64,000 nucleotides of DNA, from positions 288,001 through 352,000 of IMG/VR virus record IMGVR_UViG_3300037247_001786, one strand, 5' to 3'. Position 1 is the first letter of the stretch; each line of letters starts with the position of its first letter. Shown here one piece after another: positions 10,100 through 11,301 of this stretch. A program made the position numbers and the translations under genes. This DNA comes from a virus (lineage: Duplodnaviria > Caudoviricetes). Under the pieces are notes generated by a model that worked only from the letters and a program-made list of their open reading frames with translations, was not told where the DNA came from and searched no databases.

Positions 10100-10237
10100 A
10101 TGATAGCCAAAATCAAGAATTGGGGAATTTGTGCATGGGTAAAGAAAAGATCGTATGAAAGAAAAAGATATAAAGATTTAAAAGAGATAGCAAAGCAAGA
10201 AAGATTATGGGATATGAGATTAAGAGGAGAAAGATAA
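10100..10237 (+). CDS. Small basic hypothetical protein (45 aa, below the ORF-track cutoff)
   Basis: GAGGG-like RBS then ATG; MIAKIKNWGICAWVKKRSYERK...; downstream of the 9986 promoter. Confidence 0.45.
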   Translation: MIAKIKNWGICAWVKKRSYERKRYKDLKEIAKQERLWDMRLRGER

Positions 10238-10249
10238 TAAAAAAAATAC

Positions 10250-10277
10250 TTGAAAGTGATTAATTTTCTGGTACAAT
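10250..10277 (+). promoter_or_regulatory. Sigma70-like promoter driving the ncRNA candidate
   Basis: TTGAAA-16nt-TACAAT with TGn extended -10; predicted start about 10284-10285. Confidence 0.75.
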
Positions 10278-10284
10278 GAGTAAC

Positions 10285-10680
10285 GTAATAAAAGTATTTG
10301 CGGTGCTGTGTGAAAACGTTGAGAGGCGAAGCACTGAGACCACTTGAAAAGCTTTTATCCCGTTTGCAACCGAAGAGGTCAGGGTCAAAGAGTTTAATAG
10401 ATGGTGGGTATAAAAACTTGTCCCACGGTATCGAGGGCGTTTGGAAGCTGATCTAGACAGCAAACCATAAATCGTAGCAAGTAGCAGAGAAGTGCAGGAA
10501 AAAGATATTGTTCTGCATGGAGCCAATCTTGCCAAACACTTTTATTGCATTTTAAAAATAGAATGTCAGTGGCGTGAGTAAAAGGAGAGTTCGGAACAAT
10601 TACTTGCGTGCATTCAGGTGCAACGGCCGCAGGATACTTACGAATTATCGAAGCTGTTATCAAATTCCTGCCTGACATTT
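10285..10680 (+). ncRNA. Large structured non-coding RNA candidate (unassigned class)
   Basis: No credible ORF; GC-richer than flanks; helices 10285-10300/10533-10548, 10301-10307/10330-10336, 10338-10346/10371-10380, 10404-10408/10422-10426, 10477-10481/10528-10532, 10492-10499/10511-10518, 10562-10569/10672-10679, many with G-U pairs; T-run after 10677. Confidence 0.75.
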
Positions 10681-10708
10681 TATTTTTTTATTATGGGAAA
10701 GAAGAACT

Positions 10709-10915
10709 ATGACTAAAACTTTAATTGAGTTAAGAGAAGAATTTGAAGAGATGGCAGTAAATTGCATGTTCGATATAGAACGTAATTCAAATGGTGAATA
10801 TGAAAACACCGGAAGAAACACTTTTATGTTATGGGCAGGGTATTGGGAATGTGCTAGGATTAATGGTATAATAATCGGCAAAGATGCAGAATTTAAAAAT
10901 GCAAATAAAATTTAG
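10709..10915 (+). CDS. Hypothetical protein between the ncRNA and tmRNA
   Basis: 68-aa ORF with purine-rich RBS; its TAG ends on the first G of the tmRNA. Confidence 0.6.
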   Translation: MTKTLIELREEFEEMAVNCMFDIERNSNGEYENTGRNTFMLWAGYWECARINGIIIGKDAEFKNANKI

Positions 10916-11263
10916 GGGGTAAAAGGCATCGATTCCTATAGTTGAAAATTAAATAGCGTGTACGAGATGGTAGTTGGCTCGTTAAAAATCTACTAAAGTT
11001 GACTTAATTGACAACAGTTTTGCAATGGCTGCCTAGTCCGAAACTAGGTTGTTTACTCCTGATTCCTGTTAGGGAAGTAAGCACGATAACAGGATAGTTG
11101 AATGTTATTTGTCTCAAGATGACCTGATGCGAAAATGATTTGGGATAGAAAATATGAACCACGTTAATTTGGGTCAAATTTTTGAAATCTAAATAGTTAA
11201 CTACACACGTAGACGTTTAGTTGGAAAGTAGAGAAGACGCGAGTTCGAATCTCGCTACCTCCA
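10915..11263 (+). ncRNA. ssrA: tmRNA (transfer-messenger RNA)
   Basis: 5' GGGGGUAAAAGGCAUCGA; 3' GACGCGAGUUCGAAUCUCGCUACCUCCA; 7-bp acceptor stem with G3-U; internal tag ORF ending ...DNSFAMAA* (TAG 11034-11036); CCA not encoded. Confidence 0.95.
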
Positions 11264-11265
11264 AT

Positions 11266-11301
11266 AAAAGCCCTGACTTTTAATTAAGTTGGGGCTTTTT
11301 T
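11266..11301 (+). terminator. Intrinsic terminator after tmRNA
   Basis: AAAAGCCCTGACTT-loop-AAGTTGGGGCTTTT followed by T-run. Confidence 0.85.

What the first reader, a model, noticed from the sequence alone, without database searches (positions are those of the whole stretch)
10285..10680. Unassigned ~395-nt ornate ncRNA with its own promoter, next to the tmRNA
Seen: the predicted TSS of the 10250 promoter coincides with the first base of a 16-bp helix (one mismatch; 10285-10300/10533-10548). This helix closes a ~265-nt multibranch domain of at least five further helices (e.g. CGGUGCU/AGCACUG, GACC-CUU/AAG-GGUC, GUGGG/CCCAC, GCAAG/CUUGC, GUGCAGGA/UUCUGCAU). A second ~118-nt domain is closed by AAUGUCAG/CUGACAUU, contains GCGUGAGUAA/UUACUUGCGU and GCAGGA/UCCUGC, and runs into a U-tract. 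Frequent G-U pairs indicate selection on RNA rather than DNA pairing. I could not match hallmark motifs of RNase P, SRP, 6S, group I/II introns or known riboswitches, and no RT or nuclease lies beside it. Known: large phages and prophages carry big ornate RNAs (GOLLD, ROOL) near tRNA genes. Inference: a new large phage ncRNA class or a divergent member of one, possibly acting with the adjacent tmRNA in translation takeover or as a scaffold/decoy.
Basis: partly seen in the sequence, partly recalled or inferred. Interest (0 to 1): 0.88.

Follow-up and report, generated by a model that had tools for sequence, protein, structure and literature searches.

The report
New structured RNA heading phage tmRNA operon
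A 264-base, intricately folded non-coding RNA that matches no catalogued RNA family is conserved in a group of giant marine-sediment phages, where it always lies upstream of the phage's ribosome-rescue RNA (tmRNA); what it does is unknown.

Summary
The feature is real. Window 10285-10548 (+) encodes a 264-nt RNA that starts at the predicted start site of a phage-specific promoter and is closed by a 16-bp helix joining its two ends. I found 4 further distinct full-length homologues and 2 partial ones in other huge-phage and metagenome contigs. On their alignment, 90.5% of cells pair, against 35-44% in slid controls. 21 of 54 pairs change on both sides, against 2-4 in slid controls. The 22-nt P2 loop was identical in all 7 sequences, which were collected by exact match to 20 of its bases, and no run laid showed a variant there.

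No Rfam 15 family matches, even at E<=10. There was no blastn match among GenBank phage records. Exact searches with two motifs found no true copy in 185,579 prokaryote genomes, and I found no description in the literature.

In all 5 fetched loci with downstream sequence, and in 2 further run contigs, a tmRNA follows on the same strand, 21 to about 1,170 nt away. Three loci, the window among them, show the layout promoter, RNA, tmRNA, terminator. Contigs from two metatranscriptomes hold the RNA, and one joins it to the tmRNA.

- The GUGGG/CCCAC helix is not supported and is replaced by two covarying helices.
- The 118-nt second domain is an accessory module, seen only in the window, an X2 variant and perhaps L009.

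Function is inferred, not shown. The same scan noted this stretch once more, on this same genome only.

The parts
10250..10277 (+). Phage-type promoter (TTGAAA, 16 nt, TG-TACAAT). The predicted start is about 10283-10285, at the first base of P1.
   Evidence: The motif TTGAAAGTGAT with a -10 hexamer at fixed distance occurs 25 times in the genome. The same motif precedes the RNA in L009, L012, L013 and L014.
10285..10548 (+). Conserved 264-nt structured RNA. Six helices (P1, P2, Pa-P4, Pc, P5, P6) radiate from one junction.
   Evidence: Homologues are L008, L009, L013, L014/L023, L010 and L012. The core model scores 138-158 bits on homologues and finds one copy in the genome. No Rfam hit.
10285..10300 (+). 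P1 5' strand. It pairs with 10533-10548, with an A-C mismatch at 10296/10537.
   Evidence: helix 1: 16 pairs, 7 with changes on both sides.
10301..10336 (+). P2 hairpin: stem 10301-07/10330-36 around the 22-nt segment 10308-10329. That segment can form a small CGUU-GAGA-GGCG hairpin (GNRA tetraloop at 10321-24).
   Evidence: helix 2: 5 of 7 pairs covary. The 22 nt were identical in all 7 sequences, but 20 of them were the search pattern. The inner hairpin never varies, so it is untested.
10340..10407 (+). Pa (10340-43/10404-07) encloses P4 (base 10349-55/10389-95; the interior varies). A conserved internal loop lies between them.
   Evidence: Pa is 100% paired, with CCAC/GUGG, CCAU/AUGG and CCCAU/AUGGG variants. 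Three pairs of the P4 base covary.
10420..10438 (+). Pc, a tentative 3-4-bp hairpin (10422-24/10435-37) with a conserved loop that contains GGUAUCGA.
   Evidence: Read: GCCC/GGGC in L008 against GCUC/GAGC in L013. The aligned register shifts by 1 nt, so the counts show only 71% paired.
10439..10465 (+). P5: outer 10439-42/10462-65 and inner 10447-50/10458-61.
   Evidence: helices 7 and 8: GCUG/CAGC, GCCG/CGGC and GUC/GAC. L013 has an 11-bp hairpin of its own at the same place (read).
10477..10532 (+). P6 (10477-81/10528-32) carries the variable hairpin P6b (10492-99/10511-18) and the invariant internal-loop segment AGCCAAU (10521-27).
   Evidence: helix 9: 100% paired, G-C to G-U only. The length of P6b ranges from none (L008) to about 50 nt.
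10562..10690 (+). Accessory 3' domain closed by AAUGUCAG/CUGACAUU (10562-69/10672-79), then a U-tract (10680-90). It may be a branched terminator or a second RNA.
   Evidence: Fold. L009 has a look-alike with the closing helix UAGCAG/CUGCUA. An X2 contig about 85% identical carries A>G and C>T changes at 10602 and 10603 that keep pairs as G-U. Absent from L008, L013 and L014.
10709..10915 (+). 68-aa ORF between the RNA and the tmRNA. It is not a conserved part of the unit.
   Evidence: Its homologues sit in unrelated phage contexts. Other loci carry different ORFs at this place.
10915..11266 (+). tmRNA, the conserved downstream partner.
   Evidence: Rfam RF00023, 101.4 bits. tmRNA lies downstream in L008, L009, L013 and L014 at 84-125 bits.
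11266..11299 (+). Intrinsic terminator that ends the unit (14-bp stem plus T-run).
   Evidence: L013 has the same layout.

Best explanation
Window 10285-10548 is the gene of a stable, independently folding non-coding RNA of a family not yet catalogued. It is the promoter-proximal gene of a small non-coding operon whose last gene is the phage tmRNA.

Transcription starts at the first base of a 16-bp terminal helix (P1) that locks the 5' and 3' ends together. From P1 a six-way junction carries hairpins whose stems drift by compensatory change, while many loops and joining strands hardly vary.

Inferred mechanism: the RNA is cut out of the precursor. RNase P cutting at tmRNA G1, plus host endo- and exonucleases stopped by P1, would do this. 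It then acts in trans as a folded RNA whose conserved surfaces bind a partner, either a protein or the ribosome/tmRNA-SmpB machinery. Its role would lie in the phage's handling of host translation and ribosome rescue.

Shown: the fold, its conservation, the promoter, the linkage to tmRNA, and its absence from catalogues. Inferred: processing, action in trans, and any tie to trans-translation.
For: Structure:
- 90.5% of 304 cells pair, against 35-44% when partners are slid. 21 of 54 pairs change on both sides, against 2-4. No shuffle of 500 reaches the observed values for four of the five measures. The core model gives the same picture.
- The 22-nt P2 loop was identical in all 7 sequences. Note that they were collected by exact match to 20 of its bases. 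No variant inside the loop was listed in the runs laid.
- Indels of 1, 2, 4 and 8 nt between homologues break every reading frame.

Own transcription:
- The promoter is one of a 25-copy phage family, and the same motif stands before the homologues.
- G+C is 0.42-0.48 against 0.34 for the genome.

Operon:
- tmRNA lies downstream on the same strand in the window, L008, L009, L013 and L014. The gaps are 21, 327, 345, 366 and about 1,170 nt.
- The first canonical terminator stands only after the tmRNA in the window and in L013.
- In L008 a 12/12 consensus promoter precedes everything, only a 9/12 match stands between it and the tmRNA, and the RNA ends 21 nt before tmRNA G1.
- A 7,168-nt DNA contig (X8) and a 645-nt contig from an RNA library (X5) also join the RNA to a tmRNA.

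RNA libraries: two metatranscriptomes from two studies hold the core. In both, contigs were laid on the RNA and on the tmRNA but not on the coding flanks.

Novelty:
- No Rfam hit at E<=10.
- No blastn match among 50,697 phage records.
- No true match in one genome for each of 185,579 prokaryote species with two exact motifs.
Against: - No experiment and no raw reads exist. The RNA-library evidence is from assembled contigs, which cannot show ends, strand or size, and DNA carry-over is not excluded.
- There are only 5 distinct full-length sequences, all from one phage clade. Relatedness inflates the shuffle control, and some helices (P2b, P6) never vary.
- The single-sequence fold is only z = -1.65.
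- Linkage to tmRNA shows co-inheritance and probable co-transcription, not shared function.
- The one 7-nt complementarity to tmRNA (AGCCAAU with GUUGGCU in the first pseudoknot region) is lost in L013 and L014 without compensation.
- The phage has no SmpB gene that could mark a dedicated partner.
Confidence: 0.5

Rival explanations
1. It is a cis-acting precursor module. The fold exists only to help make the tmRNA, for example as a 5' stabiliser, a folding aid or a processing platform for RNase P or RNase E. It is discarded after cleavage.
For: It always lies 5' of the tmRNA in the same unit. In L008, and in the X5 contig by my estimate from the joint lengths, it lies only tens of bases from tmRNA G1.
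Against: Many conserved loop and junction bases are more than a stabiliser needs. In most loci 327 to about 1,170 nt of unrelated ORFs, a homing-endonuclease gene or other elements separate it from the tmRNA. That distance is hard to reconcile with a local processing role. Bacterial tmRNA genes are not known to need such a leader (my knowledge).
Confidence: 0.17
2. It is a trans-acting RNA whose function has nothing to do with tmRNA, for example a decoy or sponge for a host defence or RNA-binding protein. It merely shares the stable-RNA transcription unit.
For: Phage stable RNAs of unknown role are known to ride in tRNA operons, such as T4 species 1 and 2 RNAs, and GOLLD and ROOL lie beside tRNA genes (my knowledge; PMC6582537 for GOLLD). 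No conserved base pairing with tmRNA was found.
Against: The phage's 36 tRNA genes lie elsewhere (3 near 30-32 kb, 33 at 373-386 kb of the genome; the RNA is at 298 kb), yet the RNA stays with the tmRNA in every locus.
Confidence: 0.15
3. It is a ribozyme, either self-cleaving to free itself from the precursor or acting on other RNAs.
For: The junction strands are highly conserved and the fold is compact and multi-helix. It sits in a transcript that must be cut.
Against: No known ribozyme family matches at E<=10. By eye I did not find the RNase P motifs as I recall them from memory (GGAAAGUCC, ACAGAA...GGCUUA) in the sequence. Nothing marks a cleavage site.
Confidence: 0.08
4. It is a riboswitch-like leader that senses a ligand and controls read-through into the downstream genes and the tmRNA.
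For: It is a 5'-proximal ornate fold with conserved junctions. In the window it is followed by a stem plus U-tract (10672-10690).
Against: P1 is 11-16 bp long and pairs the very 5' end, which is too stable to switch. No conserved terminator or anti-terminator follows. The downstream ORFs differ between loci, and L008 has none.
Confidence: 0.06
5. It is a very divergent member of a known family (GOLLD, ROOL, RNase P, SRP, 6S or a group I intron), or not an RNA gene at all (a coding region or a chance fold).
For: It lies near a tRNA-like gene, as GOLLD and ROOL do. A 52-aa TTG ORF overlaps 10298-10456.
Against: No Rfam match even at E<=10, here or in L008. Its size is 220-276 nt, against about 580 nt for ROOL and about 800 nt for GOLLD (sizes from my knowledge). 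Frame-breaking indels and compensatory changes exclude coding and chance.
Confidence: 0.04

Closest known systems
GOLLD and ROOL RNAs (Rfam; large ornate RNAs of phages and prophages)
   Same: They are phage-borne, multi-helix and of unknown function. They lie next to genes for tRNA-like molecules (PMC6582537 places GOLLD inside a tRNA cluster).
   Different: No model match at E<=10. This RNA is 2-3 times smaller (220-276 nt). It is tied to tmRNA, not to the phage's tRNA clusters, which lie 75 kb or more away. No sequence motifs were seen in common.
Phage T4 species 1 and species 2 stable RNAs (rnaC, rnaD) in the tRNA operon (my knowledge)
   Same: They are stable non-coding RNAs of unknown role. 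They are co-transcribed with tRNA-type genes from a phage promoter and released by processing.
   Different: The T4 RNAs are shorter (about 120-140 nt) and simpler. I could not test for homology beyond the negative blastn of phage records.
tmRNA (RF00023), the neighbouring gene
   Same: Same transcription unit, same strand and same phage clade. Both have paired 5' and 3' ends.
   Different: This RNA has no tRNA-like acceptor or T-arm and no tag reading frame. It does not match the tmRNA model.
Large orphan bacterial RNAs such as raiA and OLE, and the roughly 8,500 candidate structured RNAs predicted from IMG/VR (PMC10690425)
   Same: Comparative evidence for structure without a known function. 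The IMG/VR set was mined from the collection that holds this phage.
   Different: raiA and OLE are in Rfam and do not match. Whether the IMG/VR candidate list holds this motif could not be checked, because no supplementary files are held. Only two IMG/VR records carry it.

Membership tests
GOLLD RNA | Match to the Rfam covariance model | tested here: not met
   No hit at E<=10 on 10150-10800, both strands. None on the L008 homologue.
GOLLD RNA | Length of about 800 nt with a two-half architecture (size from my knowledge) | tested here: not met
   The conserved unit is 264 nt here and 220-276 nt in homologues.
ROOL RNA | Match to the Rfam covariance model; length of about 580 nt (size from my knowledge) | tested here: not met
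   No hit at E<=10. The size is less than half.
RNase P RNA | Match to any Rfam RNase P model | tested here: not met
   No hit at E<=10.
RNase P RNA | Conserved P4 strands (GGAAAGUCC and ACAGAA...GGCUUA, recalled from memory) | tested here: not met
   I read the sequence by eye and did not find these motifs. No scripted pattern search was run.
SRP RNA, 6S RNA, group I and II introns, known riboswitches and self-cleaving ribozymes | Match to the Rfam covariance model | tested here: not met
   cmscan against all 4,227 families at E<=10 gave no matches.
tmRNA | tRNA-like end domain plus tag reading frame; match to RF00023 | tested here: not met
   RF00023 matches only 10915-11266 and nothing in 10150-10800.
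New family proposed here (tmRNA-upstream RNA) | P1 joining both ends, the P2 hairpin with its 22-nt loop, the Pa/P4, P5 and P6 helices, and a tmRNA downstream on the same strand | tested here: met
   core model 138-158 bits on all homologues; tmRNA downstream in all four homologous loci.
New family proposed here (tmRNA-upstream RNA) | A discrete transcript of about 265 nt | not testable with these tools
   Only assembled contigs from two RNA libraries are available. They show presence, not ends.

The most novel reading that the evidence does not exclude
The RNA is a dedicated RNA cofactor of phage trans-translation. On this reading, its conserved surfaces engage the phage tmRNA, host SmpB or the stalled ribosome. 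This would let a phage that has a tmRNA but no SmpB gene redirect or boost ribosome rescue during infection. Alternatively it could be a new ribozyme that matures the tmRNA precursor. Either would be the first RNA partner known for tmRNA.
Probability: 0.15. Interest if true: 0.92.

Novelty: categorically new. Interest (0 to 1): 0.68.

Why it matters
New large, multi-helix RNA folds with many conserved loop bases are uncommon. In the past such RNAs have turned out to be ribozymes, riboswitches or the cores of ribonucleoprotein machines.

This one is conserved in genomes of 351-461 kb that also carry many tRNA genes and a tmRNA. It is tied to the tmRNA gene in every locus seen. That linkage gives a concrete, testable lead on two open questions: why phages carry tmRNA at all, and whether trans-translation has RNA partners besides SmpB.

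The family is small and well defined: 264 nt, with a proposed six-way junction. That makes it a practical target for structure probing, cryo-EM and pull-downs. If its role turns out to be unrelated to tmRNA, it still adds a new member to the short list of ornate phage RNAs of unknown function.

Tried and rejected
- **Rfam.** Gathering thresholds over the whole window found only the tmRNA. At E<=10 the region gave nothing. The L008 and L013 neighbours gave only chance-level hits.
- **GenBank phages.** blastn found no match.
- **Synteny through neighbouring proteins.**
  - The 68-aa ORF has homologues, but in unrelated contexts.
  - The 257-aa protein found nothing in IMG/VR, and the 45-aa ORF found only itself.
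  - Methyltransferase homologues of 64-75% identity lie in other contexts. An 80%-identical one gave L023, whose RNA region is identical to L014. An 81%-identical one gave a contig that ends before the RNA site. One contig had no DNA.
- **Motif scans.** The pattern GGTATCGAG...AATCGTAGCAAG gave three chance hits in coding DNA. A third motif gave nothing in IMG/VR and four chance hits in prokaryote genomes, at most 19 bits against 138-158 for true members.
- **Paralogues.** The core model finds one copy in the genome.
- **Pairing with tmRNA.** Whole-length duplex prediction was uninformative. A 7-mer scan found AGCCAAU/GUUGGCU in 3 of 5 phages, and it is uncompensated in the other two, so I rejected it as a conserved contact.
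Rejected on the counts.
- **Domain 2.** The window and L009 share only the closing helix and the first bases. I did not establish it as a conserved RNA.
- **Coding.** Rejected, because 1-, 2-, 4- and 8-nt indels break every frame.
- **Literature.** Three searches found no description. No supplementary files of PMC10690425 are held.

Full report
**Setting.** The window is bases 288001-352000 of a 460,978-bp virus record with direct terminal repeats. Its G+C is 34% and it carries 36 tRNA genes. The only run that holds the whole stretch is a marine sediment metagenome, probably its source. Rfam confirms a tmRNA at 10915-11266 (101.4 bits). ARAGORN misses it.

- The stretch 10285-10690 lies in a gap between genes.
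- G+C rises to 0.46 against about 0.30 around it.
- A promoter-like site (TTGAAA, 16 nt, TACAAT, with an upstream TG) ends at 10277. Its extended -35 word TTGAAAGTGAT occurs 25 times in the genome, each time with a -10 hexamer at the same distance. My rough base-composition estimate of the chance number is under 1. It is therefore a genuine phage promoter class, and the predicted start falls on the first base of the terminal helix.
The single sequence alone proves little.

**Homologues.**
- Laying metagenome contigs on the stretch showed that a 55-nt core (10294-10350) and a second block (10460-10498) occur in many contigs with unrelated flanks, one of them from an RNA library.
- Exact-word scans with the core found a 350,866-bp IMG/VR phage (L008, the same contig as L011) and five metagenome contigs (L009, L010, L012, L013, L014).
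- A methyltransferase neighbour led to L023, which is identical to L014 in the RNA.
- This gives 5 distinct full-length sequences and 2 partial ones (alignment A1).
- L009, L014/L023 and L025 also share the upstream genes with the window, in part: the 257-aa protein, a methyltransferase and the 45-aa ORF. These are relatives of one phage clade.

**Structure.** On A1 I tested a nine-helix structure.
- 90.5% of 304 cells form standard pairs, against 35-44% when the partners are slid by 1-3 columns.
- 21 of 54 pairs change on both sides, against 2-4 in the slid controls.
- The covariation score is 0.235, against 0.03-0.05.
- No shuffle of 500 reaches the observed values for four of the five measures. 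For further pair types, 8 of 500 do.

Helix by helix:

| Helix | Window coordinates | Support |
|---|---|---|
| P1 | 10285-10300 / 10533-10548 | 7 covarying pairs |
| P2 | 10301-07 / 10330-36 | 5 of 7 pairs covary |
| Pa | 10340-43 / 10404-07 | always paired, three sequence variants |
| P4 base | 10349-55 / 10389-95 | 3 covarying pairs |
| P5 | 10439-42 / 10462-65 and 10447-50 / 10458-61 | GCUG/CAGC, GCCG/CGGC, GUC/GAC |
| P6 | 10477-81 / 10528-32 | always paired, varies only G-C to G-U |
| Pc | 10422-24 / 10435-37 | tentative: the double change GCCC/GGGC to GCUC/GAGC is seen by eye, but the alignment register shifts |

- A core model (142 positions) scores 138-158 bits on every homologue. Unrelated loci score at most 19 bits, and the phage genome holds a single copy.
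- The 22-nt P2 loop was identical in all seven sequences. They were found by exact match to 20 of those bases, so this is partly by construction. No variant inside the loop was listed in the runs laid.
- The loop can form a small hairpin capped by a GAGA tetraloop. As nothing varies there, this is untested.
- Several joining strands are also nearly invariant.
- Indels of 1, 2, 4 and 8 nt exclude a conserved reading frame.

**The second domain.** 10562-10679 folds as a branched structure closed by an 8-bp helix and followed by a U-run.
- It is missing in L008, L013 and L014.
- L009 has a look-alike at the same place with a closing helix that differs by two compensated pairs, but with no other similarity.
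- A variant contig about 85% identical carries A>G and C>T changes at 10602 and 10603 that keep pairs as G-U on the + strand.
- I treat it as an accessory module or a branched terminator, not as part of the conserved RNA.

**Context.**
- A tmRNA follows on the same strand in every locus with enough sequence. The gaps are 21 nt in L008, 327 nt in L013, 345 nt in L014, 366 nt here and about 1,170 nt in L009.
- A cold-seep DNA contig and a 645-nt contig from a sediment RNA library join the RNA to a tmRNA as well.
- What lies between differs: unrelated small ORFs, a LAGLIDADG gene, or other structured stretches.
- In the window and in L013 the first canonical terminator comes only after the tmRNA, and the next phage promoter follows it.
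- In L008 a perfect consensus promoter precedes a further structured stretch, then the RNA, then the tmRNA.
- The conserved layout is therefore promoter, RNA, variable insert, tmRNA, terminator.
- The phage has no SmpB gene. Most of its tRNA genes lie 75 kb or more away.

**Expression.**
- Two metatranscriptomes from two studies hold words of the core.
- On L013, their contigs were laid on the RNA and on the tmRNA but not on the coding flanks. A DNA run was laid on the flanks as well.
- This is suggestive only. Contigs show no ends or strand, the flanks are less conserved, and DNA carry-over is possible.

**What it is not.**
- No Rfam 15 family matches at E<=10, here or on the L008 homologue.
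- By eye I did not find the RNase P P4 motifs as I recall them.
- There is no match in 50,697 phage records.
- Two exact motifs find no true copy in one genome for each of 185,579 prokaryote species.
- Three literature searches found no description.
- A survey that predicted about 8,500 candidate RNAs from IMG/VR may or may not include it. Its tables are not held.

**How it most likely works.** The following is inference.
- A helix that joins the transcription start to the 3' end is, to my knowledge, typical of stable RNAs protected from exonucleases.
- Stems that drift while loops and junction strands stay fixed point to specific tertiary contacts or a bound partner.
- The RNA would be freed from the precursor when RNase P cuts at tmRNA G1 and other nucleases trim back to P1.
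- The strict linkage to tmRNA, rather than to the tRNA clusters, makes a role connected with ribosome rescue or translation the leading guess. I put that specific link at roughly one in three.
- I found no conserved base pairing with the tmRNA.
- The rivals are a cis-only precursor module, an unrelated trans-acting decoy, a ribozyme and a riboswitch-like leader. The last is unlikely because P1 is too long and stable to switch and no conserved expression platform follows.

**Verdict.** This is a real, conserved, structured RNA of a family that is not catalogued, and it heads a phage tmRNA operon. The scan noted the same stretch a second time on this genome (e1-5376659) and on no other DNA.

Noticed in passing
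window 9986, 10250, 11571, 15096, 41985, 43367, 48496, 55115 (and 17 more in the genome): A phage promoter family: (C)TTGAAAGTGAT(T), then about 11-12 nt, then a TAnAAT-like hexamer that often has an upstream TG. There are 25 copies in the 461-kb genome. The same motif occurs in related contigs.
   Followed up: partly
L008:1560-1790: A further G+C-rich, apparently structured stretch lies between a 12/12 consensus promoter and the RNA, so this phage has three structured RNAs in a row. It is partly conserved in L010. No credible Rfam hit at E<=10.
   Followed up: partly
L009:5350-5475 and L013:784-910: A roughly 125-nt element closed by UAUAG/CUAUA is 95% identical between the two loci and lies just 5' of the tmRNA. 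There is no Rfam hit, and it is absent from the window's genome.
   Followed up: partly
L014:906-1238 (- strand) and L023:2946-3278: A 110-aa LAGLIDADG-type ORF (weak Pfam hit) is inserted between the RNA and the tmRNA. It begins with the same residues as the small ORF at that place in L009.
   Followed up: no
window 10915-11266; whole genome: ARAGORN does not call the tmRNA, although Rfam scores it at 101 bits. The phage genome has no SmpB gene (PF01668) but has 36 tRNA genes, 33 of them at 373-386 kb of the genome.
   Followed up: partly
window 10100-10237: A 45-aa basic ORF upstream of the RNA promoter is conserved in L009, L014, L023 and L024. It was not found in the protein collection apart from the window's own copy.
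   Followed up: partly
L019:2121-3239, L020:1309-2427 and L022:6531-7694: TnpB/Cas12f-like genes lie near methyltransferase homologues in unrelated phage-like contigs fetched during the synteny search.
   Followed up: no
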